Source: a virus
Strand: one strand, 5' to 3'
DNA: 64,000 nucleotides
IMG/VR virus record: IMGVR_UViG_3300043256_000348
Span: 1-64,000 of that record
The position numbers and the translations under genes are program-made. Position 1 is the first letter of the stretch. Every line of letters starts with the position of its first letter. The notes below the pieces were generated by a model, which was given only the letters and a program-made list of their open reading frames with translations, did no database searches and was not told the origin of the DNA. Below, piece after piece: positions 53,970-59,115 of this stretch.

Positions 53970-54167
53970 ATGAGCCTGCAAGGCATTAAACAATTTGCCA
54001 ACCTACTACGTACCATGCAGACCGTGCGTAATGAATTGCTACGAATGGGATGCGCCGAGAAACGAACGGACAAGCAGGATATTCGGCTTGCCCGCCTGGT
54101 GTCCGACGCTGACGAATGCGTCAAGGGGCGATTTACAGCCGAAACGCTCAAAATCGAACACGACTAA
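53970..54167 (+). CDS. Small hypothetical protein
   Basis: RBS GGAGGTGA. Confidence 0.45.
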   Translation: MSLQGIKQFANLLRTMQTVRNELLRMGCAEKRTDKQDIRLARLVSDADECVKGRFTAETLKIEHD

Positions 54168-54198
54168 CCCCAGCCAGCCCAACGGGCAGGAGGATAAG

Positions 54199-54450
54199 GT
54201 GAGTGAGCATATGAGCGCGTACGTCGCAGCTACGCACTGCGAGACACACGCCCAGGCAGCCCGAGAGGGTCGCTATCTACAGAATGGCTGTATCATCTGC
54301 GAGGCAGCCAAACTGGAGCAGAGCCATGCCGACCTGCTGGCCGCGTGCGAGGCAACCCTCGCCTGCGTGGGGCCACGCTTCGACACTTACCGACAACTCA
54401 CTGCCGCCATCGCCAAAGCCAAGAAACCGGAGGGCAAAGATGCTGATTGA
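54199..54450 (+). CDS. Small hypothetical phage protein
   Basis: DLLAACE...AAIAKA motif common in phage small proteins. Confidence 0.55.
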   Translation: MSEHMSAYVAATHCETHAQAAREGRYLQNGCIICEAAKLEQSHADLLAACEATLACVGPRFDTYRQLTAAIAKAKKPEGKDAD

Positions 54451-55999
54451 GCAACTCAAACACGCACGCCGGGTGAGCGTGCCGCTCGTGGCGGTGCAGA
54501 CGCCAGACCCGGCCGCGACGATGCGAGTGATCGCGTCGGGACTGAACGGCAAGCCAGCACCTGTGGTGGCCTGGGACATCGTCCGGGGCTGCTGGCCGGT
54601 CAACGAGGCAGGCCAAGAGGTCGCGGCCCTCACAGGAAGCGGCGATGACGACCAGACCATCAGGCAGCCGGTGGCTTACCTGGAGTACGCGGTCAAGTTC
54701 CCGCCACGCACGATAGCATTCGCGTGCAACGCGCAAGAGTATATGGACGACCCCGCGTTCCGGCAAGGGATTTGGAACCTCCGGGACGAGTTCAAGCGGG
54801 ACCGGCGGATGCTGATCCTGCTGGCCCCGTCGATCGACCTGCCCGCGTCACTGAAGGACGACGTGGTGATGCTCGACGAATCCCTGCCGGACGGCGAGGT
54901 GCTACAGAAGATCGTCTGCGAGCAAGACGCGGCTGCCAATGCCTGCCAGGCGTGTGGCGGGGGCGGCACCGATGCCGGACTGGAGTGCGAGGACTGCCAC
55001 GGGAGCGGCCAGAGCAATCGGAAGTCCGCCGACGAAGAGACTGTCGACCAGGCGGTGGCAGCGACGCAGGGGCTCTCGGCCTTCGCCGCCGAGCAGGCCG
55101 TGGCGATGTCGCTGCGTCCCGAGGGGATCGACCTGGACCACCTCTGGGAGTCGAAGCGGCGGCAGATCGAGCAGACGCCGGGGCTGTCGGTCTGGCGGGG
55201 CGGTGAGACATTCGCCAGTGTCGGCGGGTTGGCTCATATCAAGGAATTCATCGGGCGGGTGCTGACCGGCAAGCGGAAGCCTACTGCTATCGTGATCGTC
55301 GATGAGTTGGAAAAAATGATTGCCGGAGCCGAAGGGCAAATGAGCGATTCGTCCGGCGTATCGCAAGGTATCTTGCAGGCGTTACTGACGCACATGCAAG
55401 ATCACGAATCCCGCGGGCTGATTTTAGTAGGCCCCCCAGGTACAGGGAAGAGTCTTGTCGCAAAGGCCACCGGCGGAGAAGCGGGCATACCGACGATTTC
55501 CTGGGATAGCAACGCGATGAAAGGATCGCTAGTCGGAGAATCGGAGGGGAATGTTCGGACAGGTCTGAAGGTTATCTCTGCGGTCAGTGGCGACCATACG
55601 TTATGGGTTGCAACGTGCAACTCAGTTCGCGGAATCCCAACGGCACTGCGTCGCAGGTTTTCATATGGGACTTACTACGTCGATCTTCCGGATAGCACAG
55701 AGAAGACTGCTATCTGGAAATACTACCTTGCCGACTACGGAATCAAGTCACGCAAGTGTCCCGATGATGCGGGCTGGACGGGTGCGGAAATCAAAACGTG
55801 CTGTGAACTTTCGGATGATCTAGGCTGTACATTAAAAGAGGCGGCTGGCTACTTCGTCCCCGTGGCGAAGGCCATGCCGGACGAGATCGAGAAGCTACAG
55901 GCAGAGGCGGACGGCAAGTACATGTCGGCCAGCCACCCGTCGGTGTATCGCCGCGACGTTCGCGACGACGGTGGGCGGGGCCGGAAAATCCAGGTATAA
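54440..55999 (+). CDS. Ycf46-like AAA+ ATPase with swapped Walker A/B segments and DnaJ-type Zn-finger insertion
   Basis: FASVGGL; IVIVDELEK (55289) before GPPGTGKS (55430); SLVGESE; VATCN; RRRF; GWTGAEIK. Confidence 0.88.
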   Translation: MLIEQLKHARRVSVPLVAVQTPDPAATMRVIASGLNGKPAPVVAWDIVRGCWPVNEAGQEVAALTGSGDDDQTIRQPVAYLEYAVKFPPRTIAFACNAQEYMDDPAFRQGIWNLRDEFKRDRRMLILLAPSIDLPASLKDDVVMLDESLPDGEVLQKIVCEQDAAANACQACGGGGTDAGLECEDCHGSGQSNRKSADEETVDQAVAATQGLSAFAAEQAVAMSLRPEGIDLDHLWESKRRQIEQTPGLSVWRGGETFASVGGLAHIKEFIGRVLTGKRKPTAIVIVDELEKMIAGAEGQMSDSSGVSQGILQALLTHMQDHESRGLILVGPPGTGKSLVAKATGGEAGIPTISWDSNAMKGSLVGESEGNVRTGLKVISAVSGDHTLWVATCNSVRGIPTALRRRFSYGTYYVDLPDSTEKTAIWKYYLADYGIKSRKCPDDAGWTGAEIKTCCELSDDLGCTLKEAAGYFVPVAKAMPDEIEKLQAEADGKYMSASHPSVYRRDVRDDGGRGRKIQV

Positions 56000-56014
56000 T
56001 GAAAGGGATCATCA

Positions 56015-56296
56015 ATGGTCGTCTGGAAGTTTGTAATTCCCATGCGCGATGTATTGTCTATTCCGATGCCAATCGGTGCGGTAATCCTGCACGTAGACTG
56101 CCAGGGAGTGAAGCCGCTGCTTTGGGCACTTGTTGATCCAGAGTCGCCTGATGAACGTCGCGACTTTTGTTTCGTGAGAACGGGGCATCCTATCGAACCT
56201 CCCTCGCCGGGGCGGCAACTGGTGCATAGGGGCAGCATGCTGATGAGTCAAGGAGCATTGGTTTGCCACTTGTTTGAATATGCGAAAAGAGACTGA
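56015..56296 (+). CDS. Conserved small phage protein
   Basis: VWKF...MPIGAVILHV..Q...LWALVDP...TGH; GGTATAAT at 55993-56000 upstream. Confidence 0.65.
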   Translation: MVVWKFVIPMRDVLSIPMPIGAVILHVDCQGVKPLLWALVDPESPDERRDFCFVRTGHPIEPPSPGRQLVHRGSMLMSQGALVCHLFEYAKRD

Positions 56297-56657
56297 ACCG
56301 ACAAGGCATGCGGATGCCGTTTAACACTTCCTGAAACCGCGTTATAATGGAGGGTGCTATGCGACTCACACTAGACATCCTCGTGCTGGCGACGGCGACG
56401 CTCGTAGCGACGCTGACGTTGCTGGCCGGACTGCACTAACCAGGGGCCGCTGTGGCCCCGCAAACCGGAGGGCAAAGGATGAGCGCGTATACTGCAATTT
56501 TCTGTTTAATTGGTGCCACCTTATCTGTGGGGTATGGCGTTGCCGGAATTCTCGCATTAGCCAGGGCAAAATACGACAAGGCCGCTGCTTTCCTCGCCGC
56601 GGCTTGCTTATTCGAGATCATAGTAAGTCGATGGCTTTGAAAGGAGGGCAATCGACG

Positions 56658-57551
56658 ATGGCTGACCAAGCACAAGCACTCCAAAACGGAACGCTTATCC
56701 TGGAGGTGATCTTCCACAAGCCGGGGATCACGCGTCGCGGCGACCTTGGCAAGGTCGAGACCGCCGCCGATAAGAAGCAGCTCGGCCTGTCGAAGAAGAT
56801 CATCGACTCGCCCCAGTACAGGGCGGTGCTGCACGTCGCGAACGCCTGCCGCGAGTACCTCAAAAGCCTGGAGTTGGAGGCCCCGTTCAAGACCGGGCGG
56901 CACCTGCTGCCGCTGAAGCTGCTGGAGCGTGCGTACACCCGCGTGGAGGAAGCCGAGGTCGCGTACCACGAGGCGGCGGACGCATTCATTGCCGCGTACC
57001 CGGCGCAGGTCCAGGCCGCCAGGCAGTCGCTAGCCGACCAGTTCGACGACGGCGACTACCCCGGCCTGGAGACTCTGCGAGAGCAATTCTGGGTCGAGCG
57101 CCGGGTCACGAGCTGGGACACGCCCGGCGAGGCGAAGATCGGCGAGTACCTGTACGAGAAGGAAAAGAGCCGCGTGGCCGAGGAGCTGTCAAGCGTGGCC
57201 GAGGACGCGAAGTTGGCCCTCCGCGAGGGACTGCGAATCCTCACCGGCAAGCTGGCCGAAAGTTTGGGGCCGAAGCCGGACGGCAAGCGGCGGCGGCTGA
57301 GCGAGTCCACCGTAAAGAAGGTCACCGACTGGCTGGCATCATTCGACGCCCGCAACGTGCTGGGCGACGCGGACCTGGGGGCCGTGGTGACCGACCTCAA
57401 GAGCGTGCTGAACAATCGCGGCGTGAAGGAACTCCGGACGAACGAAGGGATGCGAGCCGCCGTCAAGACCGAGCTGGAGCAGACAGGCAAGGCGCTGGAG
57501 GCCCTGCTTGTGGACGTGCCCGCACGGGCGATCAGCTTGGGGGACGAGTGA
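56658..57551 (+). CDS. DUF3150-like helical protein
   Basis: RBS AAGGAGG; LSKKIIDSP, FDDGDYP, GPKPDGKRRRL, FDARNV; context next to AAA and DUF1257. Confidence 0.6.
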   Translation: MADQAQALQNGTLILEVIFHKPGITRRGDLGKVETAADKKQLGLSKKIIDSPQYRAVLHVANACREYLKSLELEAPFKTGRHLLPLKLLERAYTRVEEAEVAYHEAADAFIAAYPAQVQAARQSLADQFDDGDYPGLETLREQFWVERRVTSWDTPGEAKIGEYLYEKEKSRVAEELSSVAEDAKLALREGLRILTGKLAESLGPKPDGKRRRLSESTVKKVTDWLASFDARNVLGDADLGAVVTDLKSVLNNRGVKELRTNEGMRAAVKTELEQTGKALEALLVDVPARAISLGDE

Positions 57552-57769: not shown

Positions 57770-57950
57770 CCAGATTCCTATTCAGCCCGATAACCGTAGG
57801 CGTCGGCCGTCCTCAGCGGCAATGTCGGGTGGGGCGAGTTGCCCCTGACATCGCCGATCAGCCGATGGGTAACGGCCGTGAAATCGACCGTCGGCTCCTT
57901 ACTTCAACGACACGAGGCTGGGCGACCGGCCGCAACCGGAGGGCGTAACC

Positions 57951-58403
57951 ATCTCGCACGTAGCTCTACTCGACCTGACTATTGACTCGCTCGACACGCT
58001 CGCTAAGGCGTGCGAGGCGATGGGCTTCACGTTCGATCGTGAAGGGACCAACTGGAAATGGTACGGGCGCTGGGTTGGAGATTACAACGTCAAAGACGCC
58101 GCGTACAATCAGGGCATCGCGGTAGAGCGGTACGGCACGTCCGACGCGGGCGTGATCCGTGTCCCTGGTGCCGCGTATGAAGTCGGCGTCTACAAGTCGC
58201 CGAACGAGCCGGGCAAGTACCGGCTGGTCTACGATAACTTCTCGGCGGGCAAGGGACTGCACGACAGGTGCGGCCCCGGGCTCGGCCTGCTGAAGCAGCG
58301 CTATGCCGCCGAGCGAAGCAAGAAAGAAATGAAAAAGGCTGGCTGGCGTGTCCGCGAACAGAAACAAGACGACGGGCAACTGCGGCTCGTCTGCACAAGG
58401 TAA
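57951..58403 (+). CDS. DUF1257 (Ycf35)-like protein, apparent ATC start codon
   Basis: RBS GGAGGG 57938-57943 then ATC-SHVALLDLTIDSLDTLAKAC; YEVGV, LKQRYA, GWRV...DGQLRL. Confidence 0.7.
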   Translation: MSHVALLDLTIDSLDTLAKACEAMGFTFDREGTNWKWYGRWVGDYNVKDAAYNQGIAVERYGTSDAGVIRVPGAAYEVGVYKSPNEPGKYRLVYDNFSAGKGLHDRCGPGLGLLKQRYAAERSKKEMKKAGWRVREQKQDDGQLRLVCTR

Positions 58404-58407
58404 AATC

Positions 58408-58713
58408 ATGGACCGCAACACCTTACGCAGAGCACTGGCCCGCGTGCCATACTATATGCGGCAAGGCGTGCTGGACTACCTGTATCAGGGCTGCCCGCCC
58501 GGCGACTTCCTGCGGGCCGTGTTAGAAAACGATCTTCACTTGGCCGGCTTGCAGGCGGACAACGAAAACCAAAGGGCTCTCATTGATTGGGTTGCCGTAC
58601 TGGACGCATTGCCATTGACGATCTGGGGCAGCCGAAAGAAGGTCGACGCCCATCTGGCCAGCCACATCCTTCGTAAACAACGAGAGGAGCAAGAAGCGTC
58701 ATGCAAAAGGTAA
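58408..58713 (+). CDS. Conserved hypothetical phage protein
   Basis: PPGDFLRAVLENDL...AD..N...WGS. Confidence 0.65.
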   Translation: MDRNTLRRALARVPYYMRQGVLDYLYQGCPPGDFLRAVLENDLHLAGLQADNENQRALIDWVAVLDALPLTIWGSRKKVDAHLASHILRKQREEQEASCKR

Positions 58714-58880
58714 CCATCACCATCGACACGTCAGGCAGCCCCAAGATCGAGGTCGAGGGCGTCGCCGGGCCGGAGTGCAATACCGCGACCGAGGCCCTGG
58801 AGAAGGCCCTTGGCGAGGTCCGCTCGGACAAGTTGACGGCCGACTTCCATCGACGGGAGCGTGCCCGTGTCAAGCATTGA
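58701..58880 (+). CDS. DUF2997-like small protein (59 aa, absent from ORF track)
   Basis: MQKVTITIDTSGSPKIEVEGVAGPECNTATEALEKALG...TADF. Confidence 0.75.
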   Translation: MQKVTITIDTSGSPKIEVEGVAGPECNTATEALEKALGEVRSDKLTADFHRRERARVKH

Positions 58881-59115
58881 GCTGACGATCGACACGGACG
58901 GTCTGGTGTCGGCGATATGGGACGATGCCCTGGCCGATCTGGTACAATTAGGCGAGTGCCGCGTCGAGCGGGCTTCATTGGTCGAGTGGGACGGCACGGG
59001 CTGGTCAGCAGACCTTTCGCCGGTAGACGGGCCCGTACTTGAAAGTGTTCCCCGCCGCGAGGATGCTCTGGCGGCCGAGAAGGATTGGCTCAAACGAAAC
59101 TGGAGGGCGCAATGA
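58867..59115 (+). CDS. Small conserved partner of the DUF1257/DUF2997 module
   Basis: LG...ERASLVE...WSADLSPVDGPVL...R.DALAAE..WL. Confidence 0.65.
   Translation: MSSIELTIDTDGLVSAIWDDALADLVQLGECRVERASLVEWDGTGWSADLSPVDGPVLESVPRREDALAAEKDWLKRNWRAQ

What the first reader, a model, noticed from the sequence alone, without database searches (positions are those of the whole stretch)
54440..55999. AAA+ ATPase with Walker B segment placed before Walker A
Established order in Ycf46-like AAA+ domains: VGGL, Walker A, pore loop VGESE, Walker B (hhhhDE..K..DSG), sensor 1 (VATAN), Arg finger. Seen here: VGGL, then IVIVDELEK...DSSGVSQ...LLTHMQD (from 55289), then GLILVGPPGTGKS...SLVGESE (Walker A at 55430), then directly LWVATCN and LRRRF. 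Two adjacent blocks are swapped in one open frame with all catalytic residues intact. A CxxCxGxG...CxxCxGxG DnaJ-type finger (about 54944-55009) is also inserted upstream. Inference: a rewired P-loop topology, or active sites completed between subunits.
Basis: partly seen in the sequence, partly recalled or inferred. Interest (0 to 1): 0.8.

Follow-up and report, generated by a model that had tools for sequence, protein, structure and literature searches.

The report
AAA+ ATPase with Walker B first
This phage gene encodes an ATP-driven AAA+ motor in which the strand-plus-helix unit carrying the catalytic Walker B acids is encoded in front of the ATP-binding P-loop instead of behind it. Thousands of related phage and prophage proteins share this rewiring, it seems to keep the normal three-dimensional fold, and I found no paper describing it.

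Summary
Gene 54440-55999 (+) encodes 519 aa that read VGGL, Walker B IVIVDELEK...DSSGVSQ...LLTHMQD (aa 283-321), Walker A GPPGTGKS (331-338), pore loop SLVGESE, sensor-1 strand LWVATCN and RRRF.

Searches against solved structures and against normal-order phage relatives place the 45-residue block where beta3-alpha3 (Walker B, pore loop 2) normally lies, after the pore loop.

It is not a misassembly:
- The order is collinear in the best 150 of 3086 cluster representatives, in 137 of 145 fetched loci, and in a cultured phage, Tunturi_3.
- A second assembly of the run reproduces the stretch.

D288, E289, K337, N394 and R406 are near-invariant. AlphaFold2 gives pLDDT 92.5. Residue couplings pair the moved strand with the sensor-1 strand, as in the normal 5-1-4-3-2 sheet. 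On a tree the permuted proteins form one branch, so one origin.

My reading: a working classical AAA unfoldase-type motor with an inactive D1-like N-terminal half, carrying an internal, non-circular permutation. ATPase activity, ring formation and substrate are untested.

The CxxCxGxG pair is a lineage-specific insertion, seen in 12 of 329 relatives.

This scan has reported the same permuted family before on other DNA.

The parts
54440..55999 (+). Gene of the permuted AAA+ ATPase (519 aa, P0001), stop codon included
   Evidence: ORF and translation. RBS ggaggg before the ATG. PF00004 matched only in pieces. phrog_8638, unknown function, E 2e-45.
54440..55174 (+). N-terminal half (aa 1-245): D1-like alpha/beta domain plus helical lid, with no Walker A or Walker B motifs
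   Evidence: The whole model aligns to D1-D2 of p97/Cdc48/AFG2/NVL/Rix7 (VIA Z 19.2, 395 residues aligned, rmsd 4.6, model 1-519 on p97 211-775; Foldseek). Homologous to the N-terminal half of the normal-order relatives (hhalign probability 99.5, E 4e-22).
54944..55009 (+). Two CxxCxGxG motifs (aa 169-176 and 183-190): probable single zinc knuckle, a lineage-specific insertion in the N-terminal half
   Evidence: Present in 12 of 329 relatives, two of them with four CxxC. The segment is 43 aa here against a family median of 17 (alignment). Pfam DnaJ_CXXCXGXG E 0.045, below its cut-off.
55220..55231 (+). VGGL motif at the start of the active AAA module (aa 261-264), before helix alpha0 (aa 265-276)
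   Evidence: Aligned to the VGGL of Cdc48 D2.
55277..55411 (+). Transposed block (aa 280-324): strand beta3 with Walker B (IVIVDE, D288/E289), the pore-loop-2 region DSSGVSQ, and helix alpha3 (LLTHMQD)
   Evidence: Block-only profile against PDB. hhalign to residues 356-395 of the normal-order family, E 3.5e-18. Direct alignment with Rhizobium phage L338C gp050 and Aeromonas phage HJ05 gp65. D288 98%, E289 100% conserved. Couplings 285-389, 288-392, 290-391 and 283-383.
55412..55594 (+). Block beta1-alpha1-beta2-alpha2 (aa 325-385): Walker A GPPGTGKS (aa 331-338, nt 55430-55453) and pore loop 1 KGSLVGESE (aa 361-369, nt 55520-55546)
   Evidence: PF00004 positions 1-53. Cdc48 alignments. K337 100% conserved.
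55601..55657 (+). Sensor-1 strand LWVATCN (aa 388-394, N394) and arginine-finger run RRR (aa 404-406). The strand follows helix alpha2 after a 3-residue link.
   Evidence: N394 100%, R405 96%, R406 99.7% conserved. Aligned to the SRH region of Cdc48. The alpha2-to-beta4 junction has the same length in 314 of 329 relatives.
55685..55996 (+). Lid subdomain and family-specific C-terminal tail (aa 416-519; WTGAEI, VPV, SAS motifs)
   Evidence: AF2 helices. VIA alignment of aa 244-503 to Vps4, p97 D2, spastin and FIGNL1 (Z 16-17, rmsd 2.6-3.0, about 200-210 residues aligned). hhalign to the normal-order family.
56604..57551 (+). Conserved downstream partner gene (315 aa, DUF3150-like)
   Evidence: Found on the same strand downstream of the AAA gene in 67 of 80 genome loci by tblastn and in 142 of 160 loci with an HMM. 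A homolog scores DUF3150 at E 0.003, below cut-off. The window's own copy has no Pfam match.
57951..58403 (+). DUF1257 (Ycf35-like) gene of the module. Homology starts about 69 nt upstream of the first ATG (58020).
   Evidence: Pfam DUF1257 E 4.4e-5. Cluster HMM positions 1-146 match residues 24-173 of the open frame 57882-58400. Translation.
58707..58808 (+). DUF2997-like small ORF of the module (inside open frame 58677-58877)
   Evidence: Matches the HMM of the 64-aa cluster that sits beside DUF1257 in related loci, E 2.3e-8. True DUF2997 (Pfam) follows DUF1257 in phages Tunturi_3 and L338C.

Best explanation
The gene encodes a functional classical-clade AAA+ ATPase of the phage 'Ycf46-like' group. 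It has an inactive D1-like N-terminal half followed by one active AAA module. Inside that module two neighbouring segments of the chain have changed places. The beta3-alpha3 unit (Walker B Asp-Glu, pore loop 2, helix alpha3; aa 280-324) now lies between helix alpha0 and strand beta1. The unit beta1-alpha1-beta2-alpha2 (P-loop, pore loop 1) therefore runs straight into the sensor-1 strand beta4.

The fold in space stays the normal 5-1-4-3-2 sheet. The moved strand still sits between beta4 and beta2, so Walker A, Walker B and sensor 1 still form one ATP site. The arginine run is inferred to act on the neighbouring subunit's site in a ring.

Each of the three new links only has to reach one or two strands further along the bottom of the sheet (inference from the known strand order). 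This fits their short and nearly invariant lengths.

An AB-to-BA exchange inside a domain is what a local tandem duplication followed by loss of the outer copies would produce (inference). It happened once, in the ancestor of a very large phage and prophage family.

By analogy with Cdc48, Vps4 and spastin, the protein most likely threads or remodels a protein substrate through a hexameric pore. It most likely works with the co-inherited DUF3150-like, DUF1257 and DUF2997-like proteins in the phage's early/replication region.

Shown here: the motif order, the homology of the block, the conservation, the predicted fold and the couplings. Inferred: ATPase activity, ring formation, unfoldase action, partners and the route of origin.
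For: Order and homology:
- PDB searches match Cdc48 D1 and D2 out of order.
- The block alone finds Walker B/alpha3 segments of AAA proteins (E 3.6e-5).
- hhalign maps aa 1-273 to 18-279, the block to 356-395 (43% identity, E 3.5e-18) and aa 326-500 to 298-527 of the normal-order family.
- In the alignment with L338C gp050 and HJ05 gp65, the same block lies after the pore loop in those proteins and is missing there in P0001.
- Pfam AAA covers 1-129/131 in one stretch in L338C gp050, but only 2-55 in the permuted Tunturi_3 gp103.

Not an artefact:
- More than 100 full-length homologs at 46-76% identity.
- 3086 50%-identity cluster representatives at E<1e-30; 145 of the best 150 match in one collinear full-length stretch, and the other five are split by inteins.
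- 246 of 268 proteins and 137 of 145 loci show B before A by regex, and none credibly shows A before B: the only other regex match, one in P0264 about 135 residues after its Walker A, looks spurious.
- A cultured complete phage, Tunturi_3, carries the same order.
- The window's record is a complete 92,947-base genome with terminal repeats.
- Logan's separate assembly reproduces 54400-56050 with 0 differences.

Selection on the catalytic residues: D288 98%, E289 100%, K337 100%, N394 100%, R405 96%, R406 99.7% in 328 sequences. Junction lengths are identical in 314-325 of 329.

Fold:
- AF2 pLDDT 92.5, pTM 0.82, with the element order alpha0, beta(283-287), alpha(307-321), beta(325-330), alpha, beta(352-355), alpha(365-383), beta(387-393).
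- VIA aligns the module to Vps4 and p97 D2 at Z 16-17 with about 200-210 of about 255 residues. This leaves out a stretch of about the block's size, as a sequential aligner must.
- Mean-field couplings (Neff 233): the top pair is A283-S383 (start of beta3 against the end of alpha2).
- A parallel ladder 285-389, 288-392, 290-391 ranks 33, 24 and 13 of 24,531 pairs. Alpha3-alpha2 and pore-loop-2 to pore-loop-1 pairs also rank high.
- Best coupling rank per strand pair: beta3-beta4 13, beta1-beta5 12, beta1-beta4 32, beta3-beta2 166. Pairs that are not neighbours rank 264 or worse.

Single origin: the permuted rows form one side of a branch with SH-aLRT 100, one change on the tree.

Same module around both forms: DUF1257 and DUF2997 follow both the permuted gene (Tunturi_3) and the normal-order gene (L338C). 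The partners are also present in the window.
Against: - No biochemical or structural data exist for any member.
- I could not read coordinates of the model, so the strand order rests on secondary-structure order, couplings and a sequential structural aligner.
- Couplings come from only about 233 effective sequences. The beta3-beta2 signal is weak (rank 166).
- Couplings cannot separate contacts within a chain from contacts between chains.
- The pore-loop-1 position usually held by an aromatic residue is Leu364.
- The literature check covers only open-access papers and bioRxiv.
- The sequencing run laid on the stretch is probably the source sample, so it is a second assembly, not an independent sample.
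Confidence: 0.85

Rival explanations
1. Strand-swapped ring. The moved beta3-alpha3 block does not fold back into its own chain. It inserts into the sheet of a neighbouring subunit, so each ATP site needs Walker A and Walker B from different chains.
For: Couplings would look the same for contacts within or between chains. The block is bounded by links that could act as hinges. AAA+ sites are already shared between subunits through the arginine finger (review PMC7973254).
Against: - The AF2 monomer packs the block with pLDDT 92-95 on the strand and helix.
- The links are very short (about 6, 3 and 3 residues between elements) and of fixed length, which suits a local reconnection by one or two strand spacings.
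- Normal-order sister proteins with near-identical block sequence fold within one chain by homology to solved AAA proteins.
Confidence: 0.07
2. Degenerate or regulatory ATPase. The upstream DE block is a relic or a regulatory element, the module lacks a working Walker B at the site, and the protein binds ATP without turning it over (a switch or scaffold).
For: No activity data exist. Pfam's AAA model matches only in pieces. Pore loop 1 lacks the usual aromatic residue.
Against: - E289 is 100% and D288 98% conserved, together with the sensor-1 Asn and the arginine run, across sequences down to about 40% identity. A relic would not keep this.
- D288 couples with T392, beside sensor 1.
- No alternative acidic pair exists at the old position, which is deleted.
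Confidence: 0.06
3. Assembly or annotation artefact: a chimeric or mis-joined contig, or a frame error, created the odd order.
For: The source is a metagenome (marine sediment). The only run that holds the stretch may be the source itself.
Against: - The same order occurs in thousands of independently assembled homologs and in a cultured phage genome.
- It is one open frame with no stops.
- The genome is complete with terminal repeats.
- A second assembler gives the identical stretch inside a 20,779-base contig at word depth 28.6, with no joints or differences.
Confidence: 0.01

Closest known systems
Normal-order phage 'SpoVK/Ycf46/Vps4 family' AAA ATPases, e.g. Rhizobium phage vB_RleS_L338C gp050 (AHC30467.1), Aeromonas phage HJ05 gp65, Rhodobacter phage RcMenchie gp62
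   Same: - Same architecture: D1-like N-terminal half, VGGL, one active AAA module, and a C-terminal tail with VP(V/L)..A and SAS-type motifs.
- The Walker B block is 43% identical in the profile comparison, including the D-S-G-V-S signature.
- Same setting in phages of about 80-110 kb, followed by DUF1257 and DUF2997 genes.
   Different: In those proteins the block lies after the pore loop (residues 356-395 of gp050), and Pfam AAA matches in one stretch. Overall identity to P0001 is only about 23-25%. The permuted proteins form a separate single branch.
Cdc48/p97/VAT, AFG2, NVL/Rix7 (tandem D1-D2 classical AAA unfoldases); Vps4, spastin, FIGNL1 (single-module classical AAA)
   Same: - Best sequence matches in the PDB.
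- Best structural matches: the whole chain against D1-D2 (Z 19.2) and the module against Vps4 or p97 D2 (Z 16-17).
- Walker A, Walker B, sensor-1 Asn, SRH arginines, and pore loops 1 and 2 are all present.
   Different: - The chain order of beta3-alpha3 relative to beta1-alpha2 is reversed.
- D1 has no nucleotide motifs.
- There is no N-terminal cofactor-binding domain of the p97 type.
- Leu replaces the aromatic residue in pore loop 1.
Cyanobacterial and plastid Ycf46 with Ycf35 (DUF1257) and DUF2997
   Same: - The sister family carries the Ycf46 name in JGI annotation.
- DUF1257 (= Ycf35) and DUF2997 are neighbours here and form a cluster in cyanobacteria (PMC4284462).
- ycf35 and ycf46 are lost together in freshwater red-algal plastids (PMC5940233).
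   Different: From my own recollection Ycf46 has the normal order (not tested here).
Circularly permuted P-loop NTPases (cpGTPases of the YlqF/YjeQ type; my own knowledge)
   Same: They are a natural reordering of nucleotide-binding motifs along the chain with the fold kept.
   Different: Those are whole-domain circular permutations in GTPases. Here the domain's N- and C-termini are unchanged and only two internal neighbouring segments are exchanged, in an ASCE AAA+ core.

Membership tests
Classical-clade AAA ATPase (Pfam PF00004) | Walker A GxxGxGK[ST] | tested here: met
   GPPGTGKS at aa 331-338. K337 is 100% conserved. PF00004 positions 1-53 matched.
Classical-clade AAA ATPase (Pfam PF00004) | Walker B hhhhDE on strand beta3 | tested here: met
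   IVIVDE at aa 283-289. Homologous to the Walker B of Cdc48, VAT, ClpA and NSF. E289 is 100% conserved.
Classical-clade AAA ATPase (Pfam PF00004) | Collinear motif order: Walker A, pore loop 1, Walker B, sensor 1, arginine finger | tested here: not met
   Walker B precedes Walker A by 43 residues. HMM matches come out of order. The Pfam model matches only in pieces.
Classical-clade AAA ATPase (Pfam PF00004) | Sensor-1 polar residue on beta4 and second region of homology with arginine finger(s) | tested here: met
   ATCN with N394 100% conserved. RRR at 404-406, with R406 99.7% conserved.
Classical-clade AAA ATPase (Pfam PF00004) | Alpha/beta core with 5-1-4-3-2 sheet plus helical lid | tested here: inconclusive
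   The AF2 model aligns to Vps4 and p97 D2 at Z 16-17, and couplings favour 5-1-4-3-2 with the moved strand in position 3. Coordinates could not be inspected and there is no experimental structure.
Classical-clade AAA ATPase (Pfam PF00004) | Hexameric ring with ATP hydrolysis | not testable with these tools
   The complex predictor was closed. There is no biochemistry.
Phage 'Ycf46-like' AAA family (JGI: SpoVK/Ycf46/Vps4 family) with the DUF1257/DUF2997 module | Shared D1-like N-terminal half and C-terminal tail | tested here: met
   hhalign aa 1-273 to 18-279 (probability 99.5) and 326-500 to 298-527 (probability 99.9) of the L338C-type family. Alignment.
Phage 'Ycf46-like' AAA family (JGI: SpoVK/Ycf46/Vps4 family) with the DUF1257/DUF2997 module | Neighbouring DUF1257 and DUF2997 genes | tested here: met
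   DUF1257 at 57951-58403 (Pfam E 4.4e-5). DUF2997-like ORF at 58707-58808 (cluster HMM E 2.3e-8; not a direct Pfam hit). Pfam hits for both in Tunturi_3 and L338C.
Phage 'Ycf46-like' AAA family (JGI: SpoVK/Ycf46/Vps4 family) with the DUF1257/DUF2997 module | Orthology to cyanobacterial or plastid Ycf46 proper | not tested
   No Ycf46 sequence could be fetched with the tools used.
DnaJ-type zinc finger (Pfam PF00684) | Four CxxCxGxG repeats forming two zinc centres | tested here: not met
   Only two repeats here (aa 169-176 and 183-190). Pfam E 0.045, 14.4 bits against a cut-off of 32.7. Two relatives (P0003, P0005) have four CxxC.
Anti-phage ATPase IteA (NCBIfam NF042959) | Score above the curated cut-off | tested here: not met
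   36.1 bits against a cut-off of 510. The match is partial, aa 378-456 only.

The most novel reading that the evidence does not exclude
The rewiring is more than a neutral reconnection. In the assembled ring the beta3-alpha3 block (Walker B plus pore loop 2) is exchanged between neighbouring subunits, or at least its direct 3-residue link from helix alpha3 to the P-loop strand gives a coupling between nucleotide state and pore loops that normal AAA+ motors lack. This family would then run a mechanochemical cycle of its own.
Probability: 0.1. Interest if true: 0.9.

Novelty: new variant of a known kind. Interest (0 to 1): 0.72.

Why it matters
The AAA+ core is among the most studied protein folds, and its variation is described in terms of insertions into a fixed chain topology. 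The 2021 review PMC7973254 does not contain the string 'permut'.

A natural, abundant family that builds the same active site with two internal segments exchanged shows that the chain order of the ASCE core is not fixed. It also offers a natural experiment on how connectivity shapes the coupling between ATP site and pore loops. It is a rare clean case of non-circular permutation with a sister family in the ancestral order for direct comparison.

It also explains why profile models under-annotate these proteins: Pfam AAA matches only about 55 of 131 positions.

The gene belongs to a widespread phage and prophage module with DUF1257 (Ycf35), DUF2997 and a DUF3150-like protein, whose function is unknown.

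Tried and rejected
Neighbourhoods were taken from the search for related loci instead.
- One Pfam call failed on a wrong frame, and one paper search failed on a phrase that was too long.
- Literature:
  - Phrase searches for 'permuted AAA+', 'permuted AAA', 'circularly permuted AAA+', 'permuted P-loop', 'permuted ATPase' and 'permutation of the AAA+' found 0 papers.
  - Broader searches found nothing on a permuted AAA+ core.
  - The one 'permuted' in the jumbo-phage paper concerns methylases.
  - The library holds only open-access papers and bioRxiv.
- NCBIfam gave only sub-threshold partial matches (IteA, FtsH, CDC48).
- PHROGs gave phrog_8638, function unknown.
- The window's DUF3150-like protein has no Pfam or PHROG match of its own.
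- A first single-linkage clustering of neighbour ORFs merged unrelated genes through overlapping shadow frames and was redone.
- I looked for proteins carrying the block in both positions, which would be a duplication intermediate. None was found among 388 fetched proteins; one regex double hit (P0264) looks spurious. The other ~22,000 weaker hits could not be listed.
- No RNA holder was listed for the stretch.
- Misassembly was considered and rejected (see rivals).
- I considered whether the block belongs to the D1-like half. It does not: it lies after the VGGL motif and helix alpha0 of the active module.
Full report
**What is there.** The window is the first 64 kb of a complete 92,947-base phage genome with direct terminal repeats. 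It carries a tape-measure gene and helicase genes. The only run that holds the stretch is a marine sediment metagenome.

The gene at 54440-55999 (+) starts at an ATG five bases after a ggaggg ribosome-binding site and overlaps the stop of the upstream ORF. Its 519-residue product (P0001) reads, in order:
- VGGL (261-264)
- IVIVDELEK (284-292)
- DSSGVSQ (303-309)
- LLTHMQD (315-321)
- GPPGTGKS (331-338)
- SLVGESE (363-369)
- LWVATCN (388-394)
- RRRF (404-407)

Two CxxCxGxG motifs lie at 169-176 and 183-190.

**Is the odd order real homology or chance?** Pfam's AAA model matches only in pieces: positions 1-53 on aa 327-379, plus a second stretch.

Against the PDB, a single-sequence search and a 56-sequence family profile both match Cdc48 domains out of order. 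For D2 of 6chs_H the profile gives:
- VGGL on chain 491-508
- profile 299-350 (Walker A to pore loop) on chain 528-579
- profile 254-305 (the upstream block) on chain 585-636
- profile 358-446 on chain 630-722

A profile of the 47-column block alone returns almost only the Walker B/alpha3 segments of AAA proteins. These are Cdc48 at E 3.6e-5, then VAT, ClpA, NSF, AFG2, Hsp104, PEX1, ClpX and HslU.

The cleanest evidence comes from normal-order relatives found in cultured phages. Rhizobium phage L338C gp050 and Aeromonas phage HJ05 gp65 share the N-terminal half, the VGGL region and the C-terminal tail with P0001. In them a nearly identical block (hhhhDEVDK...GGDSGVS...LTHMQE) sits after the pore loop, exactly where P0001 has only 'SGDH'.

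Profile-profile comparison with 116 such proteins gives three matches:
- aa 1-273 to 18-279 (probability 99.5)
- the block to 356-395 (probability 99.0, E 3.5e-18, 43% identity)
- aa 326-500 to 298-527 (probability 99.9)

So a 45-residue beta3-alpha3 unit has changed places with the 60-residue beta1-alpha1-beta2-alpha2 unit.

**Not an artefact.**
- The word-index search lists more than 100 full-length homologs at 46-76% identity, all with the same order.
- The exhaustive profile search finds 3086 50%-identity cluster representatives at E<1e-30. Of the best 150, 145 match the profile in one collinear stretch. The five exceptions are split by inteins.
- A motif regex gives B before A in 246 of 268 fetched family proteins and in 137 of 145 loci. 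None credibly shows the reverse; the single extra match after Walker A, in P0264, looks spurious. The 118 normal-order relatives all give A before B.
- At least 533 stretches in species-representative bacterial genomes encode a relative. They span Acidobacteriota, Nitrospirota (including the complete Nitrospira moscoviensis chromosome), Planctomycetota, Armatimonadota, Myxococcota and Verrucomicrobiota. A further 174 lie on IMG/VR viral contigs.
- Tunturiibacter phage Tunturi_3, a cultured phage with a complete genome, has the permuted order.
- Logan's separate assembly of the run reproduces 54400-56050 without any difference or joint, inside a 20.8-kb contig. This is probably the source sample, so it counts as a second assembly only.

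**Is the fold kept?** AlphaFold2 with the 56-sequence alignment gives pLDDT 92.5 and pTM 0.82. Its element order is alpha0 (265-276), strand 283-287, helix 307-321, strand 325-330, helix 337-348, strand 352-355, helix 365-383, strand 387-393, helix 401-406 and strand 411-413.

The whole model aligns to D1-D2 of p97, Cdc48, AFG2, NVL and Rix7 (VIA Z 19.2, 395 residues). The module 244-503 aligns to Vps4, p97 D2, spastin and FIGNL1 (Z 16-17, rmsd 2.6-3.0). About 200-210 of roughly 255 residues are aligned. A stretch of about the block's size is left out, as a sequential aligner must do.

Because I could not read coordinates, I computed mean-field direct couplings on 328 family sequences (Neff 233). 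Known contacts come out as expected: beta1-beta5 at rank 12, beta1-beta4 at rank 32, and alpha0-alpha1 and alpha4-lid pairs.

For the moved block:
- The strongest coupling of all is A283-S383. This is the start of the moved strand against the end of alpha2, which are direct chain neighbours in normal AAA proteins.
- Pairs 285-389, 288-392 and 290-391 form a parallel ladder with the sensor-1 strand (ranks 33, 24 and 13 of 24,531).
- Alpha3 couples with alpha2, and the DSSGVSQ region couples with the pore-loop-1 region.
- The best beta3-beta2 pair ranks 166. Strand pairs that are not neighbours rank 264 or worse.

This is the pattern of the normal 5-1-4-3-2 sheet with the moved strand in position 3.

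Catalytic residues are under strong selection: D288 98%, E289 100%, K337 100%, N394 100%, R405 96% and R406 99.7%. The three new junctions have the same length in 314-325 of 329 sequences.

**How it most likely works.** In the known AAA+ sheet order, beta4 is the neighbour of beta3 and beta1 is the neighbour of beta4. The new links are alpha2 to beta4, alpha3 to beta1 and alpha0 to beta3. Each has to reach only one or two strand spacings further at the bottom of the sheet, in the same crossover direction (inference). This explains why short links suffice and why the site can stay intact.

I therefore read the protein as a working classical AAA motor. It has an inactive D1-like half, one active module with pore loops 1 and 2, and arginine fingers that act in trans in a ring. 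ATPase activity, oligomer state and substrate are inferred, not shown.

Exchanging two neighbouring segments is formally a circular permutation of the sub-segment beta1 to alpha3. A local tandem duplication followed by loss of the outer copies would produce it (inference; no intermediate was found among 388 proteins).

I built a tree with the block moved back into the normal position for alignment. On it, the 51 permuted rows form one side of a branch with SH-aLRT 100. The label needs one change, against a mean of 27 in shuffles. This is consistent with a single origin. The ancestral state is taken to be the normal order, because all other AAA+ proteins have it.

**Context.** The gene lies in the early/replication part of the phage. 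Downstream on the same strand lie:
- a DUF7352 gene (56015-56296)
- a 315-aa DUF3150-like gene (56604-57551)
- a DUF1257 (Ycf35-like) gene
- a DUF2997-like small ORF
- an 84-aa protein of a recurring family

Across 160 related loci the DUF3150-like gene is present in 142, DUF1257 in 93 and the DUF2997-like ORF in 73. An NrdG-like radical-SAM gene is present in 46, mainly in Acidobacteriota prophages.

DUF1257 and DUF2997 follow the AAA gene in both the permuted Tunturi_3 and the normal-order L338C. The two forms therefore probably do the same job.

DUF2997, DUF1257 (ycf35) and fed7 form a cluster in cyanobacteria (PMC4284462). ycf35 and ycf46 are lost together in freshwater red-algal plastids (PMC5940233). 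The function of the module remains unknown.

**The zinc finger.** The two CxxCxGxG motifs belong to a ~26-residue insertion between the alpha/beta part and the helical part of the D1-like half. It is present in 12 of 329 relatives, two of them with four CxxC. It scores below Pfam's DnaJ cut-off. It is a clade-specific decoration and is unrelated to the permutation.

**Known or new.** No solved structure belongs to the family; the best PDB matches are Cdc48-type proteins. PHROGs lists it as phrog_8638, unknown function. Sources name members 'AAA family ATPase' or 'hypothetical protein'.

Searches of 8.1 million open papers and bioRxiv for a permuted AAA+ or P-loop ATPase found nothing. A review of AAA+ structural variation does not mention permutation.

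This scan has already reported the same permuted family on other DNA, with the same conclusion (e1-5931389, e1-5935687, e1-5939303, e1-5734839). The checks above were made independently here. I class it as a new variant of a known kind.

**Limits.** There is no biochemistry and no coordinates. Couplings rest on a modest number of sequences. The strand-swap rival is not excluded. True Ycf46 was not aligned.

Noticed in passing
Proteins P0123, P0223, P0246 (split near profile position 368, just before the Cys of the ATCN sensor-1 motif) and P0207, P0256 (split near 310-313, inside the P-loop); normal-order P0344, P0353: Several family members of 650-900 aa carry inteins (Intein_splicing, LAGLIDADG, HNH, Hom_end_hint) at two catalytic hot spots. 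The conserved Cys393 of ATCN is a likely +1 residue. Intein insertion at these sites is a further sign that they are functional.
   Followed up: partly
window 57882-58403 (+): The DUF1257 gene's homology begins at about nt 57951 (ISHVALLDL...), 69 nt upstream of the first ATG/GTG/TTG (58020). The gene probably uses a non-standard start codon, as another note of this scan proposes (ATC).
   Followed up: partly
window 58677-58877 (+), homology 58707-58808: A small DUF2997-like ORF, too short for the default ORF list, sits between the DUF1257 gene and the 84-aa gene (58861-59115). It completes the AAA/DUF3150-like/DUF1257/DUF2997 module in this phage.
   Followed up: partly
Loci L019-L066 (Acidobacteriota prophages), e.g. 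L062:5286-5888: In many prophage versions an NrdG-like radical-SAM/4Fe-4S gene (Fer4_12 E 4e-25) lies beside the DUF1257 and DUF2997-like genes next to the permuted AAA gene. It is absent from the window.
   Followed up: partly
window 54440-55174 (aa 1-245 of P0001): The N-terminal half is a D1-like AAA domain with no Walker motifs ('TPDPAAT' in place of the P-loop). The protein is a tandem AAA of the p97 type with a dead first ring.
   Followed up: partly
window 53995-54450 (+): The upstream 151-aa ORF ends 11 nt inside the AAA gene, which suggests translational coupling. It has no Pfam match and no homolog in the 80 genome loci.
   Followed up: no
Literature: PMC5940233, PMC4284462: ycf35 (DUF1257) and ycf46 (AAA) are lost together in freshwater red-algal plastids, and DUF2997-DUF1257-fed7 is a conserved cyanobacterial cluster. 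This fits the phage module as one machine shared with plastid 'ycf' genes.
   Followed up: partly
window 56015-56296 (+): A DUF7352 gene (Pfam E 4e-20; phrog_3848) lies directly after the AAA gene here, but was not found by tblastn in the 80 related genome loci.
   Followed up: no
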